Below are positions 17,044 through 63,999 of a DNA stretch of 64,000 nucleotides, piece after piece. How positions within the stretch are numbered: position 1 is the stretch's first letter; each line of letters begins with the position of its first letter. Below the pieces are notes generated by a model. The model did no database searches, was not told the origin of the DNA, and saw only the letters and a list, made by a program, of their open reading frames with translations. The stretch spans positions 26,535 to 90,534 of IMG/VR virus record IMGVR_UViG_3300020462_000001, one strand, 5' to 3'. This DNA is from a virus. A program made the position numbers and the translations under genes.

Positions 17044-18010
17044 CTAACTTTTCTAATACTTCTTGAGTAAAATACGTTTCTGGATCTTTCAGAATAGCTT
17101 TAGCATAAACCTTCTTACCATCAAACTCATAACGACCGGCAACGTTCTTCCATAGTCCACCAAGTTCTCCTAACTCTAGGAGACCATAATACTTATCAAG
17201 GCCCCTTTCATCATAATAAAGACGAACCGTTACATCTTTGTTCTCTTTACTAAGTCTTGACTTTGCTGTTTTAACTTTGATAAGGTTTCCGACAACTTCT
17301 GTTCCATCCTTTTCCTTTTTCTTGCTGAGATAAAGGATCGTAGAAGCGGCATACTTGAGGCCACTGCCTCCTCCCATTTCCTTAGTAGGGACATAAGATC
17401 CGATGACATCGTAGGTGTGATTAGTAACAATCATTGGAATTTTAGCCTGTCCCAACTTCAGGGTTAACATCCTAAATGCACCTTTAACCAACTGAGATTT
17501 GGTCATGTCACGAACTTGTTTGTCGTTAAGTGCGTCAGAAATCTCTTTCTCTGTGGATAACATACCCAAAGAGTCTAAAACAAACATACAGGGTTTGCGA
17601 TCACTTTCAGGTGTCTTTAGATATATATCGACAGCCTGTAATGCCTTCTGTCGAAACTGCTCAATGGTTACAACATTAATAACAACTAATCTACTCAGGT
17701 CAATTCCACGACTCTCAAGAAGAGATTTGTTAACTGCGGCTTCAGTGTCAAAGTACAGACAGTAACCACCAGGATTACTATCCAGAAAATTCTTAACCAC
17801 AGCGAGACTAAAGAAAGTCTTGCCAGTAGAAGACTCACCAGCAATGGCAGTAATCTTATTCCCAGAACAACCACCAAATATACTACCTGACAGAAGTCCG
17901 TTAAGGATGAACGAACCTGAGTCCACGTAAGTTTCTGTTTCGTCGATATCTGATGCGAGTTGTGTGTATTCATCACCAATCTCTTTTACAATCTCTTTTA
18001 AAAAATCCAT
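17000..18010 (-). CDS. uvsX: RecA-like recombinase UvsX
   Basis: GESSTGKT, FDTE, LDSLGML, NHTY, MGGGSG. Confidence 0.96.
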   Translation of the reverse strand: MDFLKEIVKEIGDEYTQLASDIDETETYVDSGSFILNGLLSGSIFGGCSGNKITAIAGESSTGKTFFSLAVVKNFLDSNPGGYCLYFDTEAAVNKSLLESRGIDLSRLVVINVVTIEQFRQKALQAVDIYLKTPESDRKPCMFVLDSLGMLSTEKEISDALNDKQVRDMTKSQLVKGAFRMLTLKLGQAKIPMIVTNHTYDVIGSYVPTKEMGGGSGLKYAASTILYLSKKKEKDGTEVVGNLIKVKTAKSRLSKENKDVTVRLYYDERGLDKYYGLLELGELGGLWKNVAGRYEFDGKKVYAKAILKDPETYFTQEVLEKLDEIAKEQFSYGSSV

Positions 18011-48980: not shown

Positions 48981-49226
48981 CTACCAATCAGGATAATTCC
49001 AATCTACAAATGGGTTCTTTTGTTTCCTTGTCTCTACAATTCTCTTTATCGTACAAATCTTACACTCATATGAATATGCAGATGCCGTAGATCCTTTTCT
49101 AGTTTTGTAAAACCCATCAATAAGATTCTTCACTTCACCACAAGTTCTACACTTCCTATCATTTAGAAGAAGGTGTCCTAACCTTATCTGACCATCTAAG
49201 TCCATCAGTACCCCCAGAGATCCCAA
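48981..49226 (-). CDS. small zinc-finger protein (likely start 49205)
   Basis: CRTCG...FY...CKIC; between gp17 and gp18. Confidence 0.7.
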   Translation of the reverse strand: MGSLGVLMDLDGQIRLGHLLLNDRKCRTCGEVKNLIDGFYKTRKGSTASAYSYECKICTIKRIVETRKQKNPFVDWNYPDW

Positions 49227-50866
49227 CCACCTGCAACATTCCCATACTCATCATATTTTACAGTTGACCACCTATCACCATCTTCAACAAAGGTCTCATC
49301 ACCTAAACCATCATCCATAAAACCAAATGGTGCCATATCCTGTTCAATCTGGTTCTTCTGCTCCTCATATAATCTCTTTCTAATATCATTATCAGTTAGT
49401 TCTTTAAAGTAGTCTTGTGCAACCAACCATGCATAAATGACAAGACACATTGCCAAGTCATCATTACAACCCTCTTCTGCTTCAAATGAGTTTGCCTTAG
49501 AGATGAATGTTGTGAGTTCTGAGATGATGTCATAATCACAGAACATCAACTTATCTTCCTCAATCATTGTCTTGAGGTTCAGTGATCCAACCTTCTTGAC
49601 AGTTTTGGACATCTTGACACCTAATTGTGTCTTGTTTCCAGAGAAACCCTGTCCAACAATTTGGCCTGCTCTACCTCTCATAGAACACATCAATAGGTTT
49701 TGATACTCTAGATCATATTGAAGAATGGCCGCAACTTGATCACCAACATCATTCACCTCACAAAGAATGAATGCTTGATTGTAATTCCTAGCTACTTCAT
49801 AAATGACACTTGGAAACAACATCGGTTTGATTGTGTTGTCTCTATACTTAGCTACGACCCTGTGTGGGAAGGTTGTAATGTCTACAACAACAAAGGCACT
49901 ATAATCTCCTCCAACACCCCTTGCAACGTCTACTGTGATCGCATAGTCGTGTTTGTCCTCTGGCCTCACATATACATCCAAACCAGCATTAGTTTGAATG
50001 GCTTTATCGAACACCAAGGCTTTTAGTTTACTTGGTGCAATCAGTGTATCAACAGAACCAAGGAACTCACACTCAAACTCAATCTTGAACTGTTGTTCAG
50101 AAGTGTTCTTGATTGTCTGTTCTTTCCAGACCTCATCCCTACCAGGAACTTCAGACCAGTGAACATCTGTTGGAATATATTCGTTTCGTTTCTTCTCTGC
50201 ATCCACCCACAATCTATAAAAGTGGTTCATCCCGTGAGGGGTAGAAACAATAATAACCTTTGTTGATTTACCTGAAGTAATCGTAGGATAAACAGATGCA
50301 AAGAATGCGTCAGCAACATGATTTGGAACGAACGCAAATTCGTCCAAGAAGAGGATGTTGAAAGACATACCTCGAACAGCTGATGCTGAAGTAGAAGCTG
50401 CAAGTATCTTACTACCGTTCTCTAATTCAATATTACCTTTGTTCCATACAAGAATACCCTGCTGCATCCACTTGGGTAAGTTCTCATATGCAGTAGCCAG
50501 TCTTGCTAATAGTTCTCTAGCAGTTGAAGCTTTGTTTGCCAGAATACCAATGTTGACACTATCATTGAAGATAGCATAATGAAGTAGATAAGACACACAG
50601 GTGGTAGACTTACCAGTCTGTCTTGGCATCTTACAGATATTAAATCGATTTTCATGGAAGTTAGTAATCAACTTCTCTTGAAAGTCGTAAGTTCTAAAAG
50701 GTTGAAGACCATGATCCAAGGTCACGATCTTCACATAGTTATTTGCAAAGTATACCGGATCACTCTTACACTTGATATACTCTTCAATTTGTTCTTGAGT
50801 GAACTCAATGGGGGTATTTGCTCTCTTGAGCAAAGGATTCCCCAAATAAACATCATTACTAGACAT
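49205..50866 (-). CDS. gp17: terminase large subunit (T4 gp17)
   Basis: PRQTGKST, LDEFAF, STPHG.NHF, VDVARG..DYS, NDDLAM; no intein. Confidence 0.98.
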   Translation of the reverse strand: MSSNDVYLGNPLLKRANTPIEFTQEQIEEYIKCKSDPVYFANNYVKIVTLDHGLQPFRTYDFQEKLITNFHENRFNICKMPRQTGKSTTCVSYLLHYAIFNDSVNIGILANKASTARELLARLATAYENLPKWMQQGILVWNKGNIELENGSKILAASTSASAVRGMSFNILFLDEFAFVPNHVADAFFASVYPTITSGKSTKVIIVSTPHGMNHFYRLWVDAEKKRNEYIPTDVHWSEVPGRDEVWKEQTIKNTSEQQFKIEFECEFLGSVDTLIAPSKLKALVFDKAIQTNAGLDVYVRPEDKHDYAITVDVARGVGGDYSAFVVVDITTFPHRVVAKYRDNTIKPMLFPSVIYEVARNYNQAFILCEVNDVGDQVAAILQYDLEYQNLLMCSMRGRAGQIVGQGFSGNKTQLGVKMSKTVKKVGSLNLKTMIEEDKLMFCDYDIISELTTFISKANSFEAEEGCNDDLAMCLVIYAWLVAQDYFKELTDNDIRKRLYEEQKNQIEQDMAPFGFMDDGLGDETFVEDGDRWSTVKYDEYGNVAGGWDLWGY

Positions 50867-50875
50867 AGATAATTA

Positions 50876-52171
50876 CTAACAATTCCAACGACGACGGGCA
50901 GCCTTACCTCTTTCACCAGTCCAACTTTTAGATCTTGCACAGAAGCTCTTACGACGACCAGCTGCTTTAGAACCAGGCTTCAGTTTAGAGGGAGGAGTAG
51001 TAACAGCAGTTTTCAGGTTTCCACCTGTTCTTCTGTTATACTTAGCAACTCCCTTAGCTGTCATTCCAGCACCACTCTCAGTGCTTCTTTTGTCACCAGA
51101 TTTCTGAGACATACCAGTCATGTCTTCCTGAATCTCTTCTCTCCAGTTATAGTGCTCACTCTGATTAGTTGGAAGATTTTCTTTCTGGTTCATACGAGAA
51201 GATTTATGCTTACTTCTCTGTAGAGATCTCCTTCTGTTCCTATCACTCTCCATTCTACTTTCAACATCTTTATTGTGATCATCAGCTTCTAATGATTCTG
51301 AAGTAATACCCGAATCAGCTGCAGCTGATTTCTTCACTCGATCACTGAGGTTTGAGATAGTATACTTATCCCACATTTTGGGTCCATATGCACACTTAGA
51401 ACGAGTTTCTTTCTTCTCACAGAGCTTACAATATCTCTCTTCTTCTTTCTTTTCATGAAGAGTTGATTCACCTACATTGATATATGGATCATCATAATCC
51501 ACAACAGAATGAGAGTATGATCTCAGTTGAGCACCAGGATACATCTTATCCAATGCGGCTGCAACTTTCTGTCTACCAGGAATAGCAGTATCAGGGAAGA
51601 ACAACTTCACCATCATCATCTTTCCTCTCCAACCAAAGATGACCTGATACATATTACCAGTTTGGATCTTGGTTCTTTCTAGTTCTTGAAGTTGTTGAAC
51701 TTCTTCTCCAATACCCATAATCTTTTTCATATTAGGGATGTCTTTCTTAGCACCAGGGCCCCAAGTCGCTTTATCTTCTTTGCCAATCTTACCAGAGGCA
51801 CGAAGTGCTTTTAGTTTACCCATGGCAAATCTGTCACCACGAGATGCCTTCTTTTGGAGTTCAGTCTTTTCATCTTCAGGAATAAACTCTTCTTTCTTGC
51901 AATCAGGAACTTCTTTACCACCCTTCTTCTTGGTTCCTTTAGCCTTATATCCATCCCAACACTTATCAGCTCCTACATTCTTACGAGCAGTTTCCATTCC
52001 CTCAACATTCAAGGTTTTTGGATAATCCTTATCACCTTTCTTAGCCGGAGCTTCTCCACGCTTACGTTTAGCATGAATGTTGTCCCACAGACCTTTCTTC
52101 TTCTCGGAAAGGTCTATGCCAGCAGCCTCCATGGCTCGGAGTTGGATAGGACTGAAGTTATTCCCTTGCAT
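50876..52171 (-). CDS. modular basic late protein, probable head internal (poly)protein
   Basis: Late promoter at 52194; basic modules GLWDNIHAKRKRG, KCWDGYK...VPDC, RRKSFCARS...RRWNC separated by x-x-E sites. Confidence 0.65.
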   Translation of the reverse strand: MQGNNFSPIQLRAMEAAGIDLSEKKKGLWDNIHAKRKRGEAPAKKGDKDYPKTLNVEGMETARKNVGADKCWDGYKAKGTKKKGGKEVPDCKKEEFIPEDEKTELQKKASRGDRFAMGKLKALRASGKIGKEDKATWGPGAKKDIPNMKKIMGIGEEVQQLQELERTKIQTGNMYQVIFGWRGKMMMVKLFFPDTAIPGRQKVAAALDKMYPGAQLRSYSHSVVDYDDPYINVGESTLHEKKEEERYCKLCEKKETRSKCAYGPKMWDKYTISNLSDRVKKSAAADSGITSESLEADDHNKDVESRMESDRNRRRSLQRSKHKSSRMNQKENLPTNQSEHYNWREEIQEDMTGMSQKSGDKRSTESGAGMTAKGVAKYNRRTGGNLKTAVTTPPSKLKPGSKAAGRRKSFCARSKSWTGERGKAARRRWNC

Positions 52172-53804: not shown

Positions 53805-54101
53805 TTATTCAGTTGGTAATGGTTGCTTGTTTGCAATCAGGAATGCCTTATAAGCATCTTTAACTGCTTGTGTCCATGCAGCATTACAGATGGCTTGAAC
53901 ATCAGCATCTTCACCACTGATATCAGTATCAACAAAGTTGTCACTGTCATCAATTGAACCACATACACATACATGACGATTGAAAGAACGTGCAATTTCT
54001 ACACCATCTTTCTCAACGATATCTGCTCTACGAACTTGAACGTGTTTATATGGTCCAACGACTTCAATCTTGTCGTTTTCAAATCTTTCAGTAAGTGCCA
54101 T
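53805..54101 (-). CDS. small protein following fibre gene (probable tail-fibre assembly factor)
   Basis: DKIEVV...VQVR.A....DG.EI.RSF.RH...VQAICNAAWT..VKDAY. Confidence 0.7.
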   Translation of the reverse strand: MALTERFENDKIEVVGPYKHVQVRRADIVEKDGVEIARSFNRHVCVCGSIDDSDNFVDTDISGEDADVQAICNAAWTQAVKDAYKAFLIANKQPLPTE

Positions 54102-54144
54102 TAGGATCGTCCTCCGAACTAAACAGGTTTAGGCGTATTATTTA

Positions 54145-57100
54145 TTAAACTGAGATGTATATGTATTGTCCAATAAGATATTTTCCAGAAACAGATCCAC
54201 TAACTGTCCATGAAAAATGACCATCCTTATATGTATAGAATGATGTAGTGTTGTTCTGACCATAGAAATTGATAAGTCCATCACTTGTATTGACATCTTG
54301 ATAAGAGGTAGTTCCACCACCTCTCGTAAGAGCTCCAGAACTATAAGGAGATCCATAAGTATCATTACTCTGAGTAAATGGTAAATTTCCTATTTGGATA
54401 TGATTACCATTACCAGCTGTTGATCCAGCAAATAGGATATAGAAATCAACAGTTACCATCTTACCAATCTTAATGTATCGTCCAGCACCGTAAGTGTAAG
54501 ATACATTATTGAAACCAGCAGCTGCTGTAGGATTGAAAAATCCTTCTTCATAATCATCAAGTGCATTTGCCTCAGCGGTGTCGCCGTTGAAAGTAATGCC
54601 ATCCTGAGTTACACGAATAATTTCAGTGTTACTACTATTTCTAAACTTTGTGAATCCAGAGGGACCATGGGAAATATAATTATCTTCATTGGTGCCATAT
54701 CTAAAGAGAGTTGCATATCCACTACCCCCCGTTCTCACAGCAAGACCATCTGCACCAACTCCATCAATATCTACTATATTATTTGGATTATTATTCCGAA
54801 TGCCAACATAACCAGTATGTGTACAACGAATCATTTCTCGACTATTATATTCATCTTTGATGATAAAGCTGGCATTAGCAGCACCCCCATCGATACTCCA
54901 AGCATCGGTAGCATTTTCCATCAACACAACAATACCAGCATCACCAGCGCCACCTTTTACATTTAATCTACCACCAGTTGTAACGTTTCCAGTAAATTCT
55001 GCTGTACCATTATTATTGAGGCTTATCTTGGCTGACCCTGATGATTCGTATGCCTGGAAAGCAGTTACTGTATTTGGTTGTAGGTAAGCAATACCAGTAT
55101 TGGTTGATTTTACCTGACCCGTAACTTCTATTCCAGTTGATACTACCTTAAGTTTCTCTGTGGCATTGGTACCAAGTGATAAGAAACTATTTTCTTTATT
55201 CCAGATATAAGTATCGTTTCCATCCTGTTGAATAAGTAAACCATTATTATCTGTTGCACCAGTTGTGTTATTAGTAATAACAAGGTTTGTAGCAGCATTT
55301 CCACTATGAATTTGGAGGTCTCTCACAGGTTCGCAATTTATACCAACCTTACCAGCAGAAGTTATACGAAGTATATTTGTAAATGTAATAGCATTGCCTG
55401 CAGTTCCTGCTGCTGCAGTCTGGAACCACCAACTTCCTCCCTGCATCATTATTCTTTGTGCTTCATCATTTCTGATGTAAGTATTACCACCACTAGATGC
55501 ATTATAGAAAGTATTATTTCCAAGAATCACATAATTGTCAGTTCCACTAGTATAAGAGTCTTCATATAAAACTCCTGCATATCCTACTGTAAGAGCATCT
55601 ACTGTACTTGACCAGTTAGGATTTGATTTTCCTCCTATGGAAACATTACCATCAGAATTTATACGAAGTCTTTCTGTATAAGTACCACCAGTGGGTTGCG
55701 TAAAAAATGCAAGATATGCATCATCCAGTGCAGACTCACGATATGCACCCATACCTGCAACACTATCAGTCCCTATTCTATAGTATAGTTCTCCAATAGT
55801 AGCATTATTACCAGGAGTACCATGACGAGTAAAAGTTATTCTGGCATCATTTGTACCACCAACACCTTGAATTTCTAATGGTGCAGATGGTGTAGATGTA
55901 TTGATACCAATATTACCACCAGAAGTTATACGCATTCTTTCTGTTGCGCTATTATTTCCAGTAGCAAATGCAAGGAAACCTAACCCACTAGAATTATTTT
56001 CTACACCAAATCTTACTTCACTTCTAGTGTACTCATTAGATCTATTATACTTACCACGAATTGTTGCATATGTTCCATCAGTTGAACCAACATACATCTC
56101 AACCAGGTTAGCAGCACTGGTTGTCTCACTTCCTGAACCAATATTAAGAGCACCAGCAGAAGTTATACGAACTCTTTCTGTGTCATTTGTAGAGAAGTTG
56201 AGATAACCAGTGTTTCTACCATCTCCTCCCATATAGGAGAACATACTTCCTACAGTTGTATTACCACTATATTGAGCAAATCCAATGTAACTTATGTGAC
56301 TAGAAGAATTTTGACTTCTTATCGTGCTGTTAGCAACAAAAGTTCCATCAGTTGGAACCAGACCTTTAGTTCCAATTGAACCAGCAGAAGTTATATGAAG
56401 ATTTTCTGATAATGTAGCGTTAGCATCAGCACTTCCAGTACCTAAAGACCAGAATCTAATACTACCATCAGATTTTGAGAAGGTTATTCTCTCTGCATAA
56501 CCAGTAGCTGTAAATTTATAATTACTACCATCGTAATAATAGTTGTGTCCTACATCAAATTGTGCCGAACTGTAATCAAAAAGAACACCACTTCCAACCT
56601 GTATTACATTACTAGACGATGAAGAATGCCAATTAGCGGCAGGAGCACCACCTACACCTATTTTACCAGTAGAAGTTATACGAAGTCTTTCTGTACCAGC
56701 AGTGGAGAATACTGTATCGCTACTTTCTTGGTTTTCAATATAAAGAATCCCACTAGTAGATTGTGTAATTCTTGAACCATCACCAGATCCAGACCCAATT
56801 GTGGCGTTTGTTAATTGTAAAGTACAAGAACCCGCAGTGTCATTAAATTGTGCTGTATATCCGTTACCTGTTCCTACATTAAATCCAAAATGTCCACTTG
56901 AATCTATACGAAGTCTTTCTGTATCATTGTTAGTGTATGCAATGATACTACCATTTGTACTTGCTGCGTGAATACCAATATCATTGATTTCACTACCACC
57001 AGGATTAGAACTAATTCTTGGATTAGCAGTAGCAGTTGTATTATTATAAAGAGAAATAACAGCACCAGTTGTTCCATTAGCAACTGTCAATGCTTTACGA

Positions 57101-57684
57101 CTACCAAATGTTACATTATTAGTGGTTCCAATTTTTACATCGCCACCAGAAACATTGATACCACTACGAGCAGTTATGAGACCAACTGAATCTATATTAG
57201 TAACATCTTCATACGTTAAAGTACCACCAATAGACACAGCACCACTAACACTAAAGTCACCAGTTACAGTGTCAGTAATGAAACCAGCACCATTAGTCAG
57301 TTGATTGGTATTGGTAAAGGATGTGGTAATAAACCCAGCACCATTAGTCAGTTGATTGGTATTGGTAAAGGATGTGGTAATAAATCCAGGACCATTGGTG
57401 AAGTCACTGAGGTTAGTGGGTGTATTAGTAAAGTTGTTATAATTGAGAAGGGAGGTTGATGATACACCACCCACTAAAGTTGAACTTCCTGTTAAAGGGC
57501 CAACGAAGGATGTTGCATTAACAGTTGCAAGTGTTGATACACCAGTAACTGTAATGCCTGGAAAAGTATTACTAATTATTGCTGATAAAGAAGAGTCCCA
57601 CTTCTCACCATCCCAAGTGTATTGTGTATTATTAAATGTGTAGGTGTCCCCATTGGATGGACTATTTGGAAAATTTATAGACAT
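54145..57684 (-). CDS. tail fibre protein
   Basis: INFP.SP..G..Y....Y.WDG.KW N-domain, 17-aa repeats, LTYEDVTNIDSVG, ERLRITS.G modules, C-terminal ANALDDYEEG...Y.KIG..V. Confidence 0.85.
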   Translation of the reverse strand: MSINFPNSPSNGDTYTFNNTQYTWDGEKWDSSLSAIISNTFPGITVTGVSTLATVNATSFVGPLTGSSTLVGGVSSTSLLNYNNFTNTPTNLSDFTNGPGFITTSFTNTNQLTNGAGFITTSFTNTNQLTNGAGFITDTVTGDFSVSGAVSIGGTLTYEDVTNIDSVGLITARSGINVSGGDVKIGTTNNVTFGSRKALTVANGTTGAVISLYNNTTATANPRISSNPGGSEINDIGIHAASTNGSIIAYTNNDTERLRIDSSGHFGFNVGTGNGYTAQFNDTAGSCTLQLTNATIGSGSGDGSRITQSTSGILYIENQESSDTVFSTAGTERLRITSTGKIGVGGAPAANWHSSSSSNVIQVGSGVLFDYSSAQFDVGHNYYYDGSNYKFTATGYAERITFSKSDGSIRFWSLGTGSADANATLSENLHITSAGSIGTKGLVPTDGTFVANSTIRSQNSSSHISYIGFAQYSGNTTVGSMFSYMGGDGRNTGYLNFSTNDTERVRITSAGALNIGSGSETTSAANLVEMYVGSTDGTYATIRGKYNRSNEYTRSEVRFGVENNSSGLGFLAFATGNNSATERMRITSGGNIGINTSTPSAPLEIQGVGGTNDARITFTRHGTPGNNATIGELYYRIGTDSVAGMGAYRESALDDAYLAFFTQPTGGTYTERLRINSDGNVSIGGKSNPNWSSTVDALTVGYAGVLYEDSYTSGTDNYVILGNNTFYNASSGGNTYIRNDEAQRIMMQGGSWWFQTAAAGTAGNAITFTNILRITSAGKVGINCEPVRDLQIHSGNAATNLVITNNTTGATDNNGLLIQQDGNDTYIWNKENSFLSLGTNATEKLKVVSTGIEVTGQVKSTNTGIAYLQPNTVTAFQAYESSGSAKISLNNNGTAEFTGNVTTGGRLNVKGGAGDAGIVVLMENATDAWSIDGGAANASFIIKDEYNSREMIRCTHTGYVGIRNNNPNNIVDIDGVGADGLAVRTGGSGYATLFRYGTNEDNYISHGPSGFTKFRNSSNTEIIRVTQDGITFNGDTAEANALDDYEEGFFNPTAAAGFNNVSYTYGAGRYIKIGKMVTVDFYILFAGSTAGNGNHIQIGNLPFTQSNDTYGSPYSSGALTRGGGTTSYQDVNTSDGLINFYGQNNTTSFYTYKDGHFSWTVSGSVSGKYLIGQYIYISV
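57275..57400. repeat. 51-bp tandem repeat (TNGAGFITTSFTNTNQL)
   Basis: Units start at 57284 and 57335 (near-identical), partial unit at 57386. Confidence 0.9.
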
Positions 57685-57728
57685 CTACTTGATGTTACTT
57701 TTTTTTATTTATCTGTATTATCAATTGA

Positions 57729-58778
57729 TTAGATAGTAAATGAACCAGTTACATTTGAAGATCCAGCAGTGAGTGCAATGAGATAAGGCCCACTACCCGT
57801 GATAGTGACACCTGAAGATGAGGACGGGTTTACAGACGAAGAGATATAAACGCAACCTCCGCCTCCTCTTCCACCCTCTTCCCACGAGCCCGTCGTTCTT
57901 GCACCAGCTCCACCACCGCCACCGCCTAGCCCATCGGTGCCTTGAGTCGGTGCAGTCGACGTACTGCCTCCCGTGCCTCCACCACCAGAACCACCGGATA
58001 CCGTGGTGGCGTTTGCAGAACCACCACCACCTCCTCCGCCATAGACGACACTGCTGCCAGTGATGCTGCTCGTGGAACCTGCGCCCCCTGCACCACCACT
58101 GGTATTAGAAGCGTTACTTCCAGAAGAATAACCAGCACCACCGCCGGATCCTTTGTTCGGTACTCCTGCCGCATTTCCACCAGAGACTGCGGAATAGATG
58201 GAGTTACGGCTTGCCCCTGAGGTTCTACCGGATCCGTAATCACTGGCACCGCCAGCGCCTTCGAAGGCGTTGTTGCCACCACCTTGACCACCGCCGCCCT
58301 GTGCCCAAATAGTGGTGTCCAAGCCTTCTTCATCGTCTGCGACAAAACTTCTCCAACCACCACTTTGAGTGAACTCTCCGCTGTAAACGTTCCACGTTAA
58401 TCTTGATGTTCCGCCAAGCGAAGATGAGCCTTGAGCTCTGCCACGGCCAGCGGTAATGCTGAACGTGACACCAGAAGCATCGCTAGGGCTTGCAGTAAGA
58501 GTAAAGGGAAGTACTTGCCCACCAGCTCCTCCACCGCCGGTATACAACTCCCCTTCTTCGTCTTCATTTAGGCCTCTACCGCCTGCGCCACCTCCACCAA
58601 CTAATAGCACCTGTAATGTGACAGTGTTAGAAGTACCATAGAAATCACTAATACTAAGAGCCCCCGATGAAGGTACTCCTCCATCTCCATAATACTCACT
58701 TAGTGAGTGGGGAGTTGATCCTCCAAACTCACTAGCAATTTGTGAAATTGAAATAGAACCAGAAGATTGTAATGCCAT
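57729..58778 (-). CDS. glycine-rich probable fibre-tip adhesin
   Basis: N-terminal SISISQIASEFGG..PHSLSEYY...ISDFYG, many polyglycine runs; TAATG-coupled to upstream fibre. Confidence 0.7.
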   Translation of the reverse strand: MALQSSGSISISQIASEFGGSTPHSLSEYYGDGGVPSSGALSISDFYGTSNTVTLQVLLVGGGGAGGRGLNEDEEGELYTGGGGAGGQVLPFTLTASPSDASGVTFSITAGRGRAQGSSSLGGTSRLTWNVYSGEFTQSGGWRSFVADDEEGLDTTIWAQGGGGQGGGNNAFEGAGGASDYGSGRTSGASRNSIYSAVSGGNAAGVPNKGSGGGAGYSSGSNASNTSGGAGGAGSTSSITGSSVVYGGGGGGGSANATTVSGGSGGGGTGGSTSTAPTQGTDGLGGGGGGAGARTTGSWEEGGRGGGGCVYISSSVNPSSSSGVTITGSGPYLIALTAGSSNVTGSFTI

Positions 58779-61700
58779 TACTTAACCTCCAACTTTGCTT
58801 TGAGTTCATCTATTTGAACTTGTTGTTCCTTGATTGCTTCAATCAGAACACCAACAATGTTTCCATAAGAAACTGTTTTGATATCTGGCAAAGCATCGGT
58901 ATTTTCTTCTGACCTTGCATCTGATGTTTTTACGACTTGGGGTAGGATTTCTTCCATCTCTTGTGCAATGACACCAACGCTAGACTTACCAGTATCTTTT
59001 CGATCAAAATAAACACCACGCATAGATTTCACCATATTCAATGCGTTATCAACTGTACGAATATTCTCTTTGAGACGAATATCAGAATAAGCGGTTACGT
59101 CTCCAGTAGCGGTGCAGTTACCGCTAGAATCCATCTTAAATCCCCAACTACCGGCGTTATTTAATATTCCAATGGCATTGGATTGATCAGCATAAAAATA
59201 CCCTCTAGTTGTGCTGGTATTAGTGACGACTTTAATCCCGTTAGAAGTGCTATTGTTTCTTATCTGGAGATACTGGTTATCCAAATATAAGTGATAAGAA
59301 TAGTTACTCGGCCAATAAAGTCCATGGCTACCATTCAAACTTATCCAGGTATTGGCGTTCCAGTAAGTGCTTGCAGTTTTGCCCATATAGCTAGTGCTTT
59401 CTACGCCATCAAGAGTGTCAGCATCTAGTCCAGAACCTGCGCCGTCGTTTCCTGAGTGCCAAAGAGTTCGATAAGCAGTACCATCATACCATTTTGGATT
59501 ACTAGCAAGTCTAAGTCCTTTACCAGAATTCTGGTTCCAAATGTAAATATTACCACTAGCTCCATCATACTGAAAATATGCCTTGTCTGATGTACCATCT
59601 CTCAATTGAAGATAAGGACTAGTACATCCCTCAAGAATCAATTTTTGATTACTAGGACTGTTTATTTTAGTTACTCCATTATTTTCTATGAATATTTTAC
59701 CAGCACCAGCATAACCAAATTCCAATTGAGAGTTATTGTTTGCCGCCATATGGAAGTAATCACCACCACTGAAATCACCATCAGCACCATCAAGGAAAAT
59801 ATATGCACCATTGCTGACCTCTTGGAACAACATTCCAGAAGATCCTTCTTTGGCATATATTCTGCCACCAACATTAAGTAATCCAGTGGTATTGGTACTA
59901 GCAATTTGAACTTTACCAGCAGAAGTTATATTCATGCGCTCGCTAACACCTGAAGCAAATTTTAAGGTGTCAGTATTATGGTCATACGCTATGTAACCCC
60001 TATATCTTTCATTACCACTAGTGCCATCGGCAAAGGCTAGATAACTTTGACCAGTCGTTGGTCCGTTAATGGTGATGCCACCCTCTGCGCTGCCAGATAC
60101 CACCAAATCATTGGCGTAGTAACTACTAGCAGACTGCGTTCCGATACCAAACTTGCCCGAGCTATCAACACGAAATCTCTCTACATTTACAGTACAGAAA
60201 GACATGAAGTCATCACCGTGACTGTATAATATTCTTCCTGCTCTTTTCTCACTGTTATCAGTTACTCCATCCGCAAAATGAATAGCACCAAATGCTCCAG
60301 AACCACCACTTCTAATGGTCATTCCAGCATGACTTGATTCGTCCGCTATCAGAAAGTTTTGAGCAATAGAGTCGTATGATGTGTTATTAAAAGCACCCAG
60401 ACCCATATGACCATCAGAAGTTATACGAAGTCTTTCTTTTGGTGAGTGAGTATTACCATCATCACCAGCAACACCCGATTTAGATGTTTTGAAAATTAAA
60501 TCATTAGATCCGTCATCATCACTATTTCTTACTCCACTAATAGTAGCAAGATATAAACCATTATTTGATGCTACACTTGTTGCGGATGTATCGAATGAAA
60601 TACCTCCACCGCCACCAACAGTGTTAGATCCAGTTACCTCCATATGAATAAATGAAGGACTGGAAGACATTGCATTTTTGAAATGCATTGCATGCAGTGG
60701 AGCATTATTGTTTATACCAATCTTACCATCATTAAGCAAAGAGAAGTTAGCAGAAGCACCATTGTTAGTACTTATTCTGAAATTTCCATTAACTGATAAT
60801 GTTCCATCACCAGCACTAGAACCAATAATATTTCCACCACCAGATGTTCCTTCAACACCAAGGAATAAACTTTGACTTGAGTTTGTGATTCTAAGTGTTC
60901 TTGTTTCTGTAGATGAAGGTTCAAAGATTCTTACGTTTCCTACTACATCCAGTTTTCCTACAGGAACAAGACTTCCGATACCAACCTTACTATCAGAAAT
61001 TAATGTTCCAGTGACTGTGACACCATTGTTTGTGGTTTGTAATTTCTTGACATTATCGTAATAAAGTTCTACTGAACCATTTGCTTCAGCAACAACACTA
61101 TCTTCACCAGATGGTGATTGTAATTTTATATGGTTACCATTAGCACCACGAATGTATAATATACCGGTTGCATTATCAATATAGCTGTTACCACTAGCAT
61201 GGTAAAGTTGTAAGTCATCACCAGTACCAGCAATATACTTACTGTTATCAGGAACACTAACACCAGATCGAGCAGTAATAATACCGACTGAATCGATATT
61301 AGTAACATCTTCATATGTTAATGTACCACCAACAGATACACTGCCAGTAACAGTAAAATCACCAGTTACAGTGTTAGTAATAAACTCAGCACCATTTGTG
61401 AGTTCATTGGTATTAGTAAATGATGTTGTAATGAATCCAGCACCATTTGTTAATTGGTTAGTGTTAGTGAAGGATGTTGTAATGAATCCAGCACCATTTG
61501 TGAGTTGATTGTTATTGGTGGGTATTGTTGGTTTATTACTGAGATCATCATAATCAACACCAGAGAATGATGATGCTGTAATGATACCACTGGCATTGAT
61601 ATTATTAACAGCAAACCCCTGAGCATTTAAAGATTGGGTATGATATTGCAATCCTACACTGTTTCCTAATGTAAGAGCACTACCAACATTGACTACATCA

Positions 61701-61894
61701 GTGTCACCATCCAACGTTAATGATGATGTACCAACAGTTAATATTCCAGTAATCCTAGCATCACCACTTACCGATAAAGTTTCAAAGCCGGTTCTTGATA
61801 CACTATCCCACTTCTCCCCGTCCCACAAATATTCTACACCAGCATAAGTATATCCAGTTCCAACAGAAGGACTACTTGGAAAATTAATGGCCAT
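58778..61894 (-). CDS. tail fibre protein with C-terminal intramolecular chaperone (peptidase S74)
   Basis: Same N-domain as 54145..57684; WHSGNDGAGSGLDADTLDG; TAYSDIRLKENI...GVIAQE....P..V...LIEAIKEQ. Confidence 0.9.
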   Translation of the reverse strand: MAINFPSSPSVGTGYTYAGVEYLWDGEKWDSVSRTGFETLSVSGDARITGILTVGTSSLTLDGDTDVVNVGSALTLGNSVGLQYHTQSLNAQGFAVNNINASGIITASSFSGVDYDDLSNKPTIPTNNNQLTNGAGFITTSFTNTNQLTNGAGFITTSFTNTNELTNGAEFITNTVTGDFTVTGSVSVGGTLTYEDVTNIDSVGIITARSGVSVPDNSKYIAGTGDDLQLYHASGNSYIDNATGILYIRGANGNHIKLQSPSGEDSVVAEANGSVELYYDNVKKLQTTNNGVTVTGTLISDSKVGIGSLVPVGKLDVVGNVRIFEPSSTETRTLRITNSSQSLFLGVEGTSGGGNIIGSSAGDGTLSVNGNFRISTNNGASANFSLLNDGKIGINNNAPLHAMHFKNAMSSSPSFIHMEVTGSNTVGGGGGISFDTSATSVASNNGLYLATISGVRNSDDDGSNDLIFKTSKSGVAGDDGNTHSPKERLRITSDGHMGLGAFNNTSYDSIAQNFLIADESSHAGMTIRSGGSGAFGAIHFADGVTDNSEKRAGRILYSHGDDFMSFCTVNVERFRVDSSGKFGIGTQSASSYYANDLVVSGSAEGGITINGPTTGQSYLAFADGTSGNERYRGYIAYDHNTDTLKFASGVSERMNITSAGKVQIASTNTTGLLNVGGRIYAKEGSSGMLFQEVSNGAYIFLDGADGDFSGGDYFHMAANNNSQLEFGYAGAGKIFIENNGVTKINSPSNQKLILEGCTSPYLQLRDGTSDKAYFQYDGASGNIYIWNQNSGKGLRLASNPKWYDGTAYRTLWHSGNDGAGSGLDADTLDGVESTSYMGKTASTYWNANTWISLNGSHGLYWPSNYSYHLYLDNQYLQIRNNSTSNGIKVVTNTSTTRGYFYADQSNAIGILNNAGSWGFKMDSSGNCTATGDVTAYSDIRLKENIRTVDNALNMVKSMRGVYFDRKDTGKSSVGVIAQEMEEILPQVVKTSDARSEENTDALPDIKTVSYGNIVGVLIEAIKEQQVQIDELKAKLEVK
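61377..61520. repeat. 51-bp degenerate tandem repeat (LTNGAGFITTSFTNTNQ x3)
   Basis: Three ccagcaccatttgt-type anchors at 51-bp spacing. Confidence 0.85.
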
Positions 61895-61935
61895 TTTATT
61901 TGGACTACTTTTTTAGTATTTATTGGAATACTAAA

Positions 61936-63999
61936 TCAACATGCCATCAGAACACAAGGAACACAATAACTACCGTCTGAATATGTTTTGCTGACGTTTG
62001 TAGAAGTAACTTTGGCGACAGTTTTAGATCTTATGATATCATCATCCTGTGGTTTAGCAGTACCATCACCAGCAGATATCAGTAAATCACCTCGTGTAAC
62101 TGTTACTCCTTGAGCAATACGGATAACAAAGTCACCAGTCATTGCACAGTGGAAATCGTTGGTGTAAGTTTCATCGTCATCGTCCCAATCTTGGAATACA
62201 CCTGCAACATTTCGGTCACCTTCAACATCACTGACCTTCATTCGGTTTAGTTGTATATTTTCTTCATCAGTCCATTCACACATCTCATCAAGGTTACTCA
62301 GAACAGTACCCATTAGGATTTCAGTACGTTCAGCATTACCAGGTAGTTGTGTCCAGCGTGAAAGGTGAGCACCCGTTAATGAAACTGTTCCACTAGATAC
62401 CGTGATATTTCCTACACTCGTACCATCTCTCCAAAAATCAATAAGAGTTCCATCGCTAGTGTTTCTTCTTATCGCAACAACATTACCATCATTTCTGGTA
62501 AAATGAGCATCAGATGATGGATGTAATCTTACACCTTGGTTGGCATAAGTATCTGAGGTTTTTCCGACTAGGAATACCCCAGCAGAATCAATACGTGCTC
62601 TTTCTACTTCCTGAGTGGCAAATCTAAGGAAGTTTCCGTCATTTTTGTATTCTACGTATCCAGAATATCTGGCAGTACCGCTATTGGTATCACCAAAGTA
62701 AATGCCACCATATCCTGTTGTTGAACAATACAACTGGATGCCATTACTACCACTACCTGTGCCTAATATTAGATTTCTGTCATTCGTGCCTGTATATAAT
62801 CCAAAAGATCCATCATTTCCGATTCCAATACTACCAGCAGAAGTTATACGAAGTCTTTCTGAGTTGCCGGTGGCAAATTGAATTGTCCCTAATGAAGAAC
62901 TGCCACGAATCCATTGGTTGCCATTATCCGACAATGTAAGATATGGAGCATCACTAGATAGTGTTACATTGCCCGAGCTATCAATTATCATCTTTGTTGA
63001 GACATTACCTCCTACAACAAAATTCAAATTCCGGTTGTTAGTATTACCAATATAAGTGGCTGCAGTAGAGCCGGGAGTGTTAGTTATATAAACGTTGGTT
63101 CCAGAGTTGACACCAGTAATTTGAATACCAGCATCCCCAGTGCTAGCTGACATAGTTATGTTTCTACTTGTGGCGGCAGTGGTTGTTCCAAACGTTGCAC
63201 TGCCGTCAAATGCAATAGACCAATTACTACCTCTTACTTGTAACGGCTCCAGATTATTATTGTCACGATCAAATGCCTGAATTACTCCACCATTGGTTGT
63301 GTAGAAATTCTCTATACTTGTTCCCGATGTAGGAGTAAGGTTTGCATTTACGTTTACTCCTCCAAAAACTGCACGGCCATCCGCAAAGATGGCAACCTTT
63401 TCTACTTTCGTTCCACCAATATCAGAGAATGTTTGAATGGTCTTCGAAGCTGCATTCGTGGTTTGGGAGTAAACATCAACCGTACTATCAGTTAAATCAA
63501 TATCACTAGCAAACGTGGCTGAACCGGTGCCGTTAAATCTTATTTTTTCAGTGCCTCCAACCTTAACTGAAAAGACTTCCCCCGTTGTACCAGCTACAGT
63601 ATCTAGGATGATGTTTGAAGCAAACGTTGCACTGCCGTCCGCTGCTACTATTTCAACGGTAGGAGTTGTAGTGTTTCCATCGTTTTGGAAAAGACGTACT
63701 CCTCCTCTATAGGCATTAATCCATCCATTCGTACTATTTGCAAAAGCATTAAGTATTACCCCTGCATTGCTGTTTGAAGTTGATGGGTCTCCAAACGTTC
63801 CTGTCGTAGCAAACGTTGCAGATCCTTCAGAAGTGATACTTCCGTCATTTTTGATTGATGACGTAGGTGTTCCTGTACCATTAACATATCCTCTGAAAAC
63901 AGGAACACTTCCACTTGTTGTCGCAAGGACACCGTTTGTAGCGGCAAGATAACTACCTACACCATTACCAGGATTAACTCTTGATGCACCTGAGAATAC
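61936..63999 (-). CDS. tail fibre protein, 5'-truncated by the window edge
   Basis: I translated the frame open from 63999 to 61936 (the track shows only the part from 63153); repeated GSATF and ERLRIT modules; C-terminal GAHLSRW...GDLLISAGDGTAKPQ...YCVPCVLMAC chaperone-like domain. Confidence 0.85.
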   Translation of the reverse strand, partial: VFSGASRVNPGNGVGSYLAATNGVLATTSGSVPVFRGYVNGTGTPTSSIKNDGSITSEGSATFATTGTFGDPSTSNSNAGVILNAFANSTNGWINAYRGGVRLFQNDGNTTTPTVEIVAADGSATFASNIILDTVAGTTGEVFSVKVGGTEKIRFNGTGSATFASDIDLTDSTVDVYSQTTNAASKTIQTFSDIGGTKVEKVAIFADGRAVFGGVNVNANLTPTSGTSIENFYTTNGGVIQAFDRDNNNLEPLQVRGSNWSIAFDGSATFGTTTAATSRNITMSASTGDAGIQITGVNSGTNVYITNTPGSTAATYIGNTNNRNLNFVVGGNVSTKMIIDSSGNVTLSSDAPYLTLSDNGNQWIRGSSSLGTIQFATGNSERLRITSAGSIGIGNDGSFGLYTGTNDRNLILGTGSGSNGIQLYCSTTGYGGIYFGDTNSGTARYSGYVEYKNDGNFLRFATQEVERARIDSAGVFLVGKTSDTYANQGVRLHPSSDAHFTRNDGNVVAIRRNTSDGTLIDFWRDGTSVGNITVSSGTVSLTGAHLSRWTQLPGNAERTEILMGTVLSNLDEMCEWTDEENIQLNRMKVSDVEGDRNVAGVFQDWDDDDETYTNDFHCAMTGDFVIRIAQGVTVTRGDLLISAGDGTAKPQDDDIIRSKTVAKVTSTNVSKTYSDGSYCVPCVLMAC

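What the first reader, a model, noticed from the sequence alone, without database searches (positions are those of the whole stretch)
55352..62861. Codon-level conserved, loxP-half-site-like repeat at tail-fibre module boundaries
Seen: ten copies of CCAGCAGAAGTTATACGAAGTCTTTCTG in three fibre genes, with unrelated sequence between them. Synonymous positions are nearly fixed (GAA AGA CTT CGT ATA ACT TCT, with ATA for Ile in all ten), more than the peptide ERLRITS requires. The core has GAAGT twice at 10-bp spacing, and TATACGAAGTCTT matches the loxP arm TATACGAAGTTAT at 11/13. Two smaller families also recur: TTGCCCGAGCTATCAA (60153, 62969) and CAAACGTTGCACTGCCGTC (about 63189, 63621). Inference: in-frame crossover points for swapping fibre modules, either by UvsX microhomology or by a tyrosine recombinase outside this window, forming a host-range diversification system.
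Basis: partly seen in the sequence, partly recalled or inferred. Interest (0 to 1): 0.7.

Follow-up and report, generated by a model that had tools for sequence, protein, structure and literature searches.

The report
Codon-locked joints shuffle phage fibre modules
Three tail-fibre genes of a marine Synechococcus-type cyanophage are strings of old, diverged shaft modules joined by one 27-base motif that is always spelt in the same codons, and related phages have swapped single modules exactly at this motif; this is a sharp new example of a way of rebuilding host-recognition fibres that is already known in outline from T4-type phages.

Summary
Twelve in-frame copies of a 27-nt island, (T)ERLRITS(A), lie in three fibre genes on the minus strand. 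Among copies, 82% of same-residue pairs use the same codon, against 36% expected from codon usage. The flanks and the equally conserved GxxGIG tail sit at expectation. Codon bias, codon-pair bias, recent duplication and RNA structure do not explain this.

The units between copies are old paralogues (19-29% identity) of the triple-beta-helix shaft repeat solved in Bdellovibrio MAT fibres.

In metagenomes and isolates, relatives share single units at 76-93% nucleotide identity. 38 of 43 informative homology ends fall in the motif zones (21% of the region), and unit order is not collinear.

The motif has three discrete spellings, mostly one per genome:
- A: Synechococcus phages, including the non-T4-like S-TIM5.
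- B: Prochlorococcus-type phages.
- C: higher-GC contigs.

Best reading: an in-frame homologous-recombination joint, kept uniform by repeated exchange.

The loxP/tyrosine-recombinase idea fails. No copy has an inverted arm. The contig and three complete motif-rich genomes lack an integrase. Spellings B and C lack the lox-like bases.

This scan reported the same phenomenon earlier on at least three other cyanophage genomes.

The parts
54145..57684 (-). Fibre gene F1 (1179 aa). It has a conserved N-terminal anchor, seven motif-headed shaft units and a C-terminal domain.
   Evidence: ORF; PHROG tail fiber phrog_18345 and phrog_9942; unit alignment.
58778..61894 (-). Fibre gene F2 (1038 aa), with a C-terminal S74 intramolecular chaperone domain. 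It has three clear motif copies plus degenerate ones near 60714-60738 and 60978-61002.
   Evidence: PF13884 at residues 937-989; PDB 6F45 and 8I4M; D4 repeat family; the L198 HSP 60714-61002 at 93% is bounded by the degenerate copies.
61936..63999 (-). Fibre gene F3. Its 5' end lies beyond the window; 687 aa are visible. It has two motif copies and a tip domain shared with other shafts.
   Evidence: ORF; the C-terminal 61935-62378 is 72-76% identical to many loci that carry spelling C.
56896..56922 (-). Island copy 1 (TERLRIDSS). It is the boundary between the F1 N-terminal anchor and the shaft.
   Evidence: many HSPs at 88-95% start here and run towards the N-terminus.
56668..56694 (-). Island copy 2 (TERLRITST), canonical spelling A.
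   Evidence: boundary of about 15 loci; end of X7 record 17.
56383..56409 (-). Island copy 3 (SENLHITSA). The 5' half has decayed; the 3' half is exact.
   Evidence: boundary of two unit families.
56155..56181 (-). Island copy 4 (TERVRITSA).
   Evidence: boundary of the unit shared with L012 and L191.
55918..55944 (-). Island copy 5 (TERMRITSG).
55651..55677 (-). Island copy 6 (TERLRINSD).
55354..55380 (-). Island copy 7 (TNILRITSA). The 5' part has decayed.
60413..60439 (-). Island copy in F2 (KERLRITSD), spelling A.
60158..60184 (-). Diverged copy in F2 (VERFRVDSS). Its tail is the small family at 60153-60168, spelt GAT AGC TCG GGC, which resembles spelling C.
   Evidence: X6 loose end at 60129.
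59918..59944 (-). Diverged copy in F2 (SERMNITSA). The 3' half is exact.
   Evidence: contig pieces end or start at 59932-59942.
62836..62862 (-).
   Evidence: L191 junction; X7 record 23.
62581..62607 (-). Diverged copy in F3 (VERARIDSA). Ile is ATT here.
62969..62984 (-). Second copy of the small family, encoding IDSSGN. It is 16 nt exact with 60153-60168 and uses the rare codons AGC, TCG and GGC.
   Evidence: not seen in the 187 loci held at that point.
63189..63207 (-). Small family DGSATF, 19 nt exact with 63621-63639, using the rare codons GGC and ACG. Both copies are in the N-terminal repeats of F3.
63621..63639 (-). Second copy of the DGSATF island.
17207..18001 (-). RecA/UvsX-family recombinase gene of the same phage, a candidate catalyst of the exchanges.
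   Evidence: PF00154 match, E 3.8e-22, 74 bits, at G000:C1:43741-44535.

Best explanation
The repeat is a 27-nt in-frame island, (T)ERLRITS(A). It heads each beta-helical shaft unit of trimeric fibres of the S74/MAT type. It serves as a short patch of DNA identity between units that are otherwise unalignable.

General homologous recombination uses this patch. The exchange can be between co-infecting phages or between copies in one genome. Each exchange swaps, adds or removes whole units without breaking the reading frame or the fold.

Repeated exchange among copies homogenises the island. This is concerted evolution, possibly reinforced because only well-spelt copies keep taking part. The result is one spelling per gene pool: A, B or C. 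No site-specific recombinase is involved.

Shown here:
- codon locking beyond what the peptide needs;
- old, saturated flanks;
- single-unit sharing with ends at the island;
- non-collinear unit order;
- discrete spellings, mostly one per genome.

Inferred:
- that crossovers physically occur inside the island;
- which enzyme acts;
- that homogeneity comes from exchange rather than from direct selection.
For: 1. Codon locking is confined to about 9 codons. Same-codon pairs are 82% against 36% expected. The flanks are 35% against 39%, and the conserved GxxGIG tail is at expectation. The result repeats in three other genomes: G001 0.80 against 0.46, S-TIM5 0.88 against 0.36, P-TIM68 0.70 against 0.47.

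2. Breakpoints map to the island. All 23 distinct blastn HSPs (150 nt or more, 75% or more) to F1 residues 230-800 span exactly one unit. 38 of 43 informative ends lie in motif zones that cover 21% of the region (binomial 9e-21; the ends are not all independent, but five different units show it).

3. The edges are sharp. The mean identity profile jumps from about 0.3 to 0.83 at the first base of the Glu codon. It falls from 0.75 to 0.46 and then to about 0.3 after base +27 of the next motif.

4. Unit order is not collinear. The same units sit at very different positions in other proteins. In L191, F1 unit 4 is followed directly by F3 unit 11, and the crossover interval is the island. L188 combines F1 units with the F3 tip.

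5. Independent runs show the same ends. Contig pieces from other metagenome runs end at island copies and then run on unlike: X7 record 17 (55906-56703, 97.5%), X7 record 23 (from 62854, 99.5%) and X9 record 26 (56380-56691).

6. Isolate genomes also show ends at the motif, for example S-TIM5 against the T4-like contig L056.

7. The pattern is that of concerted evolution. Between orthologous units, third-position identity in the motif (0.79) is no higher than in the interior (0.83). The unit shared with L012 carries spelling A at both ends here and spelling B at both ends there.

8. The spellings are discrete and genome-specific. Third positions are linked (odds ratio 24, p 1e-31). Only 6 of 59 loci are mixed, against about 40 expected. 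Background codon usage is alike in A and B loci.

9. A RecA/UvsX gene is on the contig.

10. There is precedent. [quoted passage not shown]
Against: - No recombination event was observed directly.
- In the two near-identical runs (X4, X6), no listed joint links two island copies. Contigs cannot show rare variants.
- Most relatives are metagenome contigs, so chimeric assembly at shared repeats cannot be fully excluded. The exact shared stretch here is 23 nt or less, and isolates show the same pattern.
- An island of 21-27 nt is short for RecA-type homologous recombination (own knowledge of T4 genetics).
- S-TIM5 has the strongest locking but no RecA-family match.
- Ends at the motif would also arise if crossovers were random and selection kept only chimeras joined at structurally neutral points.
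- Both AT-rich spellings avoid the preferred codons (AGA for the second Arg, ATT for Ile). This hints at some constraint other than drift.
Confidence: 0.68

Rival explanations
1. Protein constraint only. The repeat is the DNA image of a conserved structural peptide. The codon identity comes from codon bias, codon-pair bias or recent duplication.
For: The peptide is a widespread fibre motif: PDB 8OND and 8OML and many marine phages. Five of the seven codons are the genome's commonest for their residue.
Against: - Same-codon pairs are 82% against 36% expected, while the adjacent and equally conserved Gly/Ile residues are at expectation.
- ATA (13% of Ile codons) and CGT (25% of Arg codons) are nearly fixed.
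- CGT-ATA is not among the eight commonest of 68 Arg-Ile codon pairs outside the fibres.
- Flank synonymous sites are saturated and units are 19-29% identical.
- Some other phages encode the same peptide with scattered codons: L098, L100, L103, L110.
Confidence: 0.03
2. Selection filter without a homology role. Crossovers occur anywhere by illegitimate recombination, and only chimeras joined at the unit edge fold. The codon identity is a separate by-product of short-patch gene conversion.
For: The island directly precedes the capping-loop consensus V-G-G/N-x-x-x-P-x-x-x-L of solved beta-helix fibres (PMC10769870), so the site is a plausible structural seam. Degenerate copies also act as boundaries (56383-56409; F2 60714 and 61002).
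Against: The identity profile changes within a few bases of the island edges, not over the whole conserved peptide block of about 16 residues. Gene conversion among copies itself requires that the copies pair, which is the homology role. Partners that share units with this spelling-A genome are mostly spelling A, although shared ancestry confounds this.
Confidence: 0.13
3. A nucleotide-level function unrelated to recombination. Examples are a programmed translational slow-down at non-preferred codons (second Arg not AGA, Ile not ATT) that helps the trimeric beta-helix fold during translation, or an RNA element.
For: Spellings A and B both avoid the preferred codons at the same two positions.
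Against: - There is no RNA structure signal: mean z is +0.25 over 9 copies.
- Four synonymous positions co-vary as discrete alleles, which a pause does not need.
- The first Arg, Thr and Ser use common codons.
- Orthologous copies are no more conserved at third positions than unit interiors, which argues against a strict sequence requirement.
- It does not explain breakpoints at the island.
Confidence: 0.1
4. A site-specific system. The island is the target of a tyrosine recombinase (loxP-like half site), an invertase, or a dedicated spelling-specific nuclease.
For: ACTTCGTATA is shared with a loxP arm, an 11/13 match. Discrete spellings could in principle be specificity classes.
Against: - No inverted arm lies within 40 nt of any copy.
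- All copies are direct, on one strand.
- PF00589, PF00239, GIY-YIG and HNH_3 are absent from the contig.
- PF00589 is absent from three complete genomes with 6-23 copies.
- The lox-like bases are missing in spellings B and C.
- About 1.9 chance hits per window are expected for such a 13-mer.
- The contig is only 44% complete, so an unknown factor elsewhere is not excluded.
Confidence: 0.04

Closest known systems
Recombination between conserved motifs in T-even distal tail-fibre and adhesin genes (gp37 conserved motifs; glycine-rich motifs of gp38). Tetart et al. 1996 and 1998, as cited and extended in Trojet et al. 2011, PMC3157838.
   Same: Conserved motifs flank variable segments of host-recognition genes of T4-superfamily phages. 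Natural and laboratory chimeras have their junctions in or near the motifs. The outcome is modular change of fibres.
   Different: - The motif is unrelated: ERLRITSxG, with no His or Gly-rich box.
- It lies in the shaft repeats, not the adhesin tip.
- Synonymous sites are locked over 27 nt.
- There are three discrete spellings, mostly one per genome.
- Exchange crosses phage families (S-TIM5 against T4-like).
- I found no report of codon-level locking for the T-even motifs in the papers read.
Botstein's modular theory of phage evolution (1980), as cited in PMC3157838.
   Same: Interchangeable modules are recombined among co-infecting phages.
   Different: Here the modules are parts of a gene: single units of 76-99 residues inside one protein.
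Triple-beta-helix shaft repeats of S74-type and Bdellovibrio MAT fibres (PDB 8OND Bd2133, 8OML; Caulton et al. 2024, PMC10769870).
   Same: The same peptide motif, (S/T)ERMRI(D/T)xSGN(L/V)G(I/L)G, followed by the capping-loop consensus. Matches: profile E 1.3e-5 and 5.4e-5; single sequence 2.8e-4. The paper also infers exchange of fibre tips.
   Different: That work is at protein level in a bacterium. It gives no analysis of DNA spelling or of unit shuffling.
loxP/Cre and other tyrosine-recombinase sites.
   Same: Ten contiguous bases (ACTTCGTATA) of one arm.
   Different: There is no second inverted arm, no spacer architecture and no recombinase, and the bases are not conserved in the other spellings.
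GRINS, skewed repeats inside polyketide synthase genes that are associated with gene conversion (Nivina et al. 2021, PMC8256042; only the search listing was read).
   Same: A DNA-level repeat inside coding sequence, linked to gene conversion and module diversification.
   Different: The island is only 27 nt and has no marked base skew (A9 C6 G4 T8 by inspection). GRINS membership was not formally tested.
Invertible fibre segments and shufflons (Cin/Min, Rci). Own knowledge.
   Same: Fibre C-termini are changed by recombination at short repeats.
   Different: Those systems use inverted repeats and a dedicated recombinase. Here all copies are direct, and no invertase or integrase is found.

Membership tests
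lox-type tyrosine-recombinase site | Two inverted arms of about 13 bp around a spacer of 6-8 bp. | tested here: not met
   The pattern ACTTCGTATA N8 TATACGAAGT has 0 matches at up to 3 mismatches. No inverted repeat lies within 40 nt of any copy.
lox-type tyrosine-recombinase site | A cognate tyrosine recombinase encoded by the element. | tested here: not met
   PF00589 is absent from the 90.5-kb contig (the contig is 44% complete). It is also absent from S-TIM5, P-TIM68 and the complete 210-kb G001, which carry 12, 6 and 23 copies.
lox-type tyrosine-recombinase site | Arm sequence conserved wherever the site is used. | tested here: not met
   Spelling B (CGC ATC ACA TCA) and spelling C (CGA ATC GAC AGC) lack the lox-like bases.
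Conserved-motif recombination in T4-superfamily fibre and adhesin genes | Conserved motifs flank variable segments in host-recognition genes. | tested here: met
   12 copies separate units that are 19-29% identical.
Conserved-motif recombination in T4-superfamily fibre and adhesin genes | Junctions of natural chimeras fall in or beside the motifs. | tested here: met
   38 of 43 HSP ends lie in motif zones. The identity profile is sharp at the island edges. L191 carries an explicit junction.
Conserved-motif recombination in T4-superfamily fibre and adhesin genes | Recombinants with junctions at the motifs are recovered in crosses. | not testable with these tools
   This needs co-infection experiments.
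Conserved-motif recombination in T4-superfamily fibre and adhesin genes | Sequence homology to the T-even gp37 or gp38 motifs. | not tested
   The peptide ERLRITSxG contains no His or Gly-rich box by inspection. No alignment to gp37 or gp38 was made.
S74/MAT-type trimeric beta-helix fibre shaft | Sequence match of the repeat unit to solved beta-helix fibre segments. | tested here: met
   The profile of 12 units matches 8OML (E 1.3e-5) and 8OND (E 5.4e-5).
S74/MAT-type trimeric beta-helix fibre shaft | C-terminal S74 intramolecular chaperone. | tested here: met
   PF13884 is found in F2 only, at residues 937-989, E 5.4e-14. F1 and F3 end in other domains, like the non-S74 MAT fibres (PMC10769870).
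S74/MAT-type trimeric beta-helix fibre shaft | Trimeric beta-helix fold of the units. | tested here: inconclusive
   The AF2 monomer model of F1 residues 326-680 has mean pLDDT 51. It is all-beta, and the motif segments are locally its best parts. It is too weak for a fold search.
Invertase or shufflon fibre switches | Inverted crossover sites plus a serine or tyrosine invertase. | tested here: not met
   All copies are direct, on one strand. PF00239 and PF00589 are absent.
GRINS | Long repeats with intense nucleotide skew. | not tested
   By inspection only: the island is 27 nt and has no marked skew.

The most novel reading that the evidence does not exclude
The three spellings may be selected recombination 'barcodes'. 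On this reading each spelling defines a host-linked exchange pool: A in Synechococcus phages, including the non-T4-like S-TIM5; B in Prochlorococcus-type phages; C in higher-GC contigs. Shaft and tip cassettes would then pass freely among unrelated phage families within a pool but rarely between pools. This would be an evolved, genome-encoded device for fibre evolvability, rather than a passive by-product of exchange. A stronger form, with a spelling-specific factor that cuts or pairs the island, is much less likely.
Probability: 0.22. Interest if true: 0.8.

Novelty: new variant of a known kind. Interest (0 to 1): 0.6.

Why it matters
Tail fibres set phage host range, and marine cyanophages control the most abundant photosynthetic cells in the sea. 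This case shows, at single-base resolution and in natural populations, where fibre genes are cut and rejoined.

- The unit of exchange is one beta-helix segment.
- The joint is kept identical at the DNA level.
- The joint exists in a few discrete spellings that may delimit which phages can trade parts.

This gives three practical gains:
- a marker for finding and parsing fibre cassettes in metagenomes;
- a testable model for how short homologies channel modular evolution inside genes;
- natural, fold-compatible seams for studying fibre modules in laboratory phage-host pairs.

Tried and rejected
DNA for the best protein relatives (P0001, P0020, P0060 and others) could not be fetched. The search for related loci on metagenome contigs was used instead.
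- The AF2 monomer model of F1 residues 326-680 had mean pLDDT 51. It was not used for a fold search.
- The short 'joints' between island copies in read laying (sides of 21-32 nt, runs X7 and X9) are contigs of other phages that carry the same motif. They are not deletions in this phage. The near-identical runs X4 and X6 list no joint between island copies, and contigs cannot show rare variants.
- RNA structure around the island: mean z +0.25. Rejected.
- General Arg-Ile codon-pair preference for CGT-ATA: not seen outside the fibres. Rejected.
- Spelling explained by genome codon usage or GC: background usage is alike in A and B loci. Rejected for A against B. Spelling C does sit in higher-GC contigs.
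- Extra conservation of the island between orthologous units: not found, 0.79 against 0.83. The locking is therefore a property of paralogues and gene pools, not a strict site constraint.
- The GAAGT x2 motif at 10-bp spacing is present only in spelling A, so it is not a conserved feature.
- The search of earlier findings by sequence found nothing. Megablast of the spelling-B contig L078 against isolate phages found nothing.
- The link between spelling B and Prochlorococcus phages rests on P-TIM68, a weak P-RSM6 hit, and G001's psbA region being closest to Prochlorococcus phages. It is only suggestive.

Full report
**What the window is.** The window is part of a 90.5-kb viral contig (39% GC, 44% complete). 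Its core structural genes are about 80% identical in DNA to Synechococcus T4-like cyanomyoviruses such as RB11-B, S-B05 and S-B43. The finding lies in three large genes on the minus strand:
- F1, 54145-57684, 1179 aa.
- F2, 58778-61894, 1038 aa.
- F3, 61936 to beyond the window end.

A glycine-rich protein gene (57729-58778, PF21722) lies between F1 and F2. PHROGs call F1 and F2 tail fibres. F2 ends in an S74 intramolecular chaperone domain.

**The observation.**
- At peptide level there are 12 in-frame copies of (T)ERLRITSxG: seven in F1 (spaced 228-297 nt, all multiples of three), three in F2 and two in F3.
- Genome codon usage gives ATA 13% of Ile and CGT 25% of Arg.
- Yet Ile is ATA in 10 of 11 copies, and the second Arg is CGT in 10 of 10. 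The first Arg is AGA in 9 of 10.

**The codon test.** I anchored the 12 copies on the motif. At each position I counted pairs that have the same residue and asked how many also use the same codon.
- In ERLRITS, 260 of 318 pairs share the codon. Codon usage predicts 114.
- In the flanks, 159 of 449 do, against 175 predicted. Their synonymous sites are saturated.
- The Gly and Ile residues of the GxxGIG tail just downstream are equally conserved as protein, but their codons are at expectation.

The locking is therefore confined to about nine codons (27 nt) and is not a consequence of the peptide.

**Further controls.**
- Synonymous shuffles of the three genes give 3.9 +/- 4.3 repeated 16-mers, against 107 observed.
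- Outside the N-terminal anchor, every exact repeat of 14 nt or more belongs to one of three in-frame motifs.
- CGT-ATA is not among the common Arg-Ile codon pairs outside the fibres, and the region has no RNA-structure signal.

**The two small families.** They are exact islands of 16 and 19 nt inside (I/V)DSSG(K/N) and DGSATF, spelt with rare codons, with unalignable flanks. They were not seen in the other loci held at that point.

**What the units are.**
- The stretches between copies are not unrelated. They are distant paralogues, 19-29% identical, with a shared pattern.
- A profile of the 12 units matches the solved Bdellovibrio MAT fibres 8OML and 8OND at E about 1e-5 (single sequence).
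- In those trimeric beta-helix fibres the same peptide, SERMRIDTSGNLGLGTAAP, directly precedes the 'capping loop' consensus V-G-G/N-x-x-x-P-x-x-x-L (PMC10769870).
- My monomer model was too weak to add anything.

The island thus heads each beta-helical shaft segment. That this is a structural seam is an inference.

**Breakpoints.** Protein relatives from metagenomes match F1 at 65-84% identity over single units, and the ends sit at the motif. Examples in F1 residues are P0020 580-683, P0060 425-516 and P0077 255-344. These units lie at quite different positions in the other proteins.

- In F1 residues 230-800, all 23 distinct nucleotide matches (150 nt or more, 75% or more) span exactly one unit.
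- 38 of 43 informative ends lie in motif zones that make up 21% of the region.
- The averaged identity profile rises from about 0.3 to 0.83 at the first base of the Glu codon. It falls to background just after base +27 of the next motif.

L191 shows a textbook junction. It follows F1 unit 4 up to the island and F3 unit 11 from the island onward. L188 joins F1 units to the F3 tip.

Contigs from independent marine runs also match long stretches at 88-99.5% and then diverge at island copies (table 8). The short 'joints' in that output are only other phages' motifs. Isolate genomes show ends at the motif too, including S-TIM5 against the T4-like contig L056.

**Spellings.** A degenerate scan of IMG/VR returned the peptide in many phages. 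In AT-rich contigs it occurs as two discrete 21-mers with four linked synonymous differences:
- A: GAAAGACTTCGTATAACTTCT.
- B: GAAAGACTTCGCATCACATCA.

A third spelling, C (GAG CGN CTA/ATG CGA ATC GAC AGC), occurs in contigs of 42-50% GC.

- Third positions are tightly linked (odds ratio 24).
- Only 6 of 59 loci hold both A and B, against about 40 expected.
- Background codon usage is alike in A and B loci.
- Spelling A is found in Synechococcus phage isolates: S-TIM5 with 12 copies, then S-TIM61, S-TIM66, S-SM2, S-SKS1 and S-TIM54.
- Spelling B is found in P-TIM68, and in a complete 210-kb genome (G001, 23 copies) whose psbA region is closest to Prochlorococcus phages.
- The codon-locking test repeats in G001, S-TIM5 and P-TIM68.

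**Orthologues against paralogues.** Between orthologous units in different phages, the island's third positions are no better conserved than the unit interior (0.79 against 0.83). The unit shared with the B-type contig L012 is 83% identical overall (65 of 82 interior third positions match). It carries spelling A at both ends here and spelling B at both ends there. Copies resemble the other copies of their own gene pool rather than their orthologues. That is the signature of concerted evolution, and it speaks against a strict binding-site constraint.

**Mechanism.** The best reading is an in-frame homologous-recombination joint.
- Short identity at the head of each unit lets general recombination exchange whole units within and between phages.
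- Repeated exchange keeps the joint uniform within a pool.
- A RecA/UvsX gene is on the contig at window 17207-18001. However, S-TIM5 has no RecA-family match, so the enzyme is open.

**The lox idea fails.**
- No copy has an inverted arm.
- No integrase, invertase, GIY-YIG or HNH_3 gene is on the contig.
- No integrase is present in three complete genomes rich in the motif.
- The lox-like bases are absent from spellings B and C.
- About 1.9 chance hits per window are expected for such a 13-mer.

**Comparison with what is known.** Exchange at conserved motifs of fibre and adhesin genes is established for T4-type coliphages (PMC3157838, citing Tetart 1996 and 1998). Mosaic fibres with complex repeats were noted in cyanomyoviruses (PMC1079782). 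My literature searches found no description of this motif's codon locking or of its discrete spellings.

Earlier agents of this scan reported the same kind of joint in at least three other cyanophage genomes. A word search of their notes for discrete spellings or a host link returned nothing.

**Verdict.** The feature is real and statistically strong, and it is a new variant of a known kind. The recombinase inference is not.

Noticed in passing
window 57284-57418 and 61386-61520: Three tandem 51-nt units encode NQLTNGAGFITTSFTNT in the N-terminal parts of both F1 and F2. Two F1 copies are 100% identical (57284-57316 and 57335-57367).
   Followed up: no
window 57147-57421 and 61249-61523: A 275-nt block is 80% identical between the N-terminal regions of F1 and F2, and 75-87% identical to many other loci. 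It looks like a conserved anchor domain. The F2 part (residues 212-307) matches the fibre gp28 of cyanophage P-SCSP1u (PDB 8I4M, E 6e-11).
   Followed up: partly
window 53805-54147: The small ORF 53805-54101 (98 aa, phrog_6228, unknown function) and the 3' end of F1 are 86-91% identical in DNA to at least 8 loci whose fibre genes are otherwise different. This gene sits downstream of many different fibres and is a candidate fibre assembly factor.
   Followed up: no
window 61935-62378: The C-terminal part of F3 is shared at 72-76% nucleotide identity with many contigs that carry spelling C and different shafts (L221, L230, L231, L233, L203, L188). This suggests tips are exchanged as well as shaft units.
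   Followed up: partly
window 57729-58778: A glycine-rich protein (PF21722 Gly_rich_2, E 2.4e-7) is encoded between two fibre genes. GGN-rich DNA repeats run through it (families D7 and D8).
   Followed up: no
window 59400-59470: Run X9 shows a depth of about 2,600 at 59430-59432, with loose ends on both sides. The stretch encodes SGLDADTLDG. Very abundant other organisms or phages in that sample apparently share this short fibre motif.
   Followed up: partly
S-TIM5 (NC_019516.2), locus L249: S-TIM5, a non-T4-like Synechococcus myovirus, has 12 copies with the strongest codon locking (0.88 against 0.36 expected). It has no RecA-family match and shares motif-bounded units with a T4-like contig (L056).
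   Followed up: partly
loci L205, L209, L120 and W01:68111; G001 copies: Hybrid spellings occur (CGC-ATA, 21 copies; CGT-ATC, 30 copies). They could be crossovers inside the island between pools, or stepwise mutation.
   Followed up: no
window 50876-52171: A 431-aa protein matches several PHROGs of unknown function only at its two ends (residues 17-147 and 338-431). It may be another mosaic structural gene, next to the large terminase gene (49205-50866).
   Followed up: no
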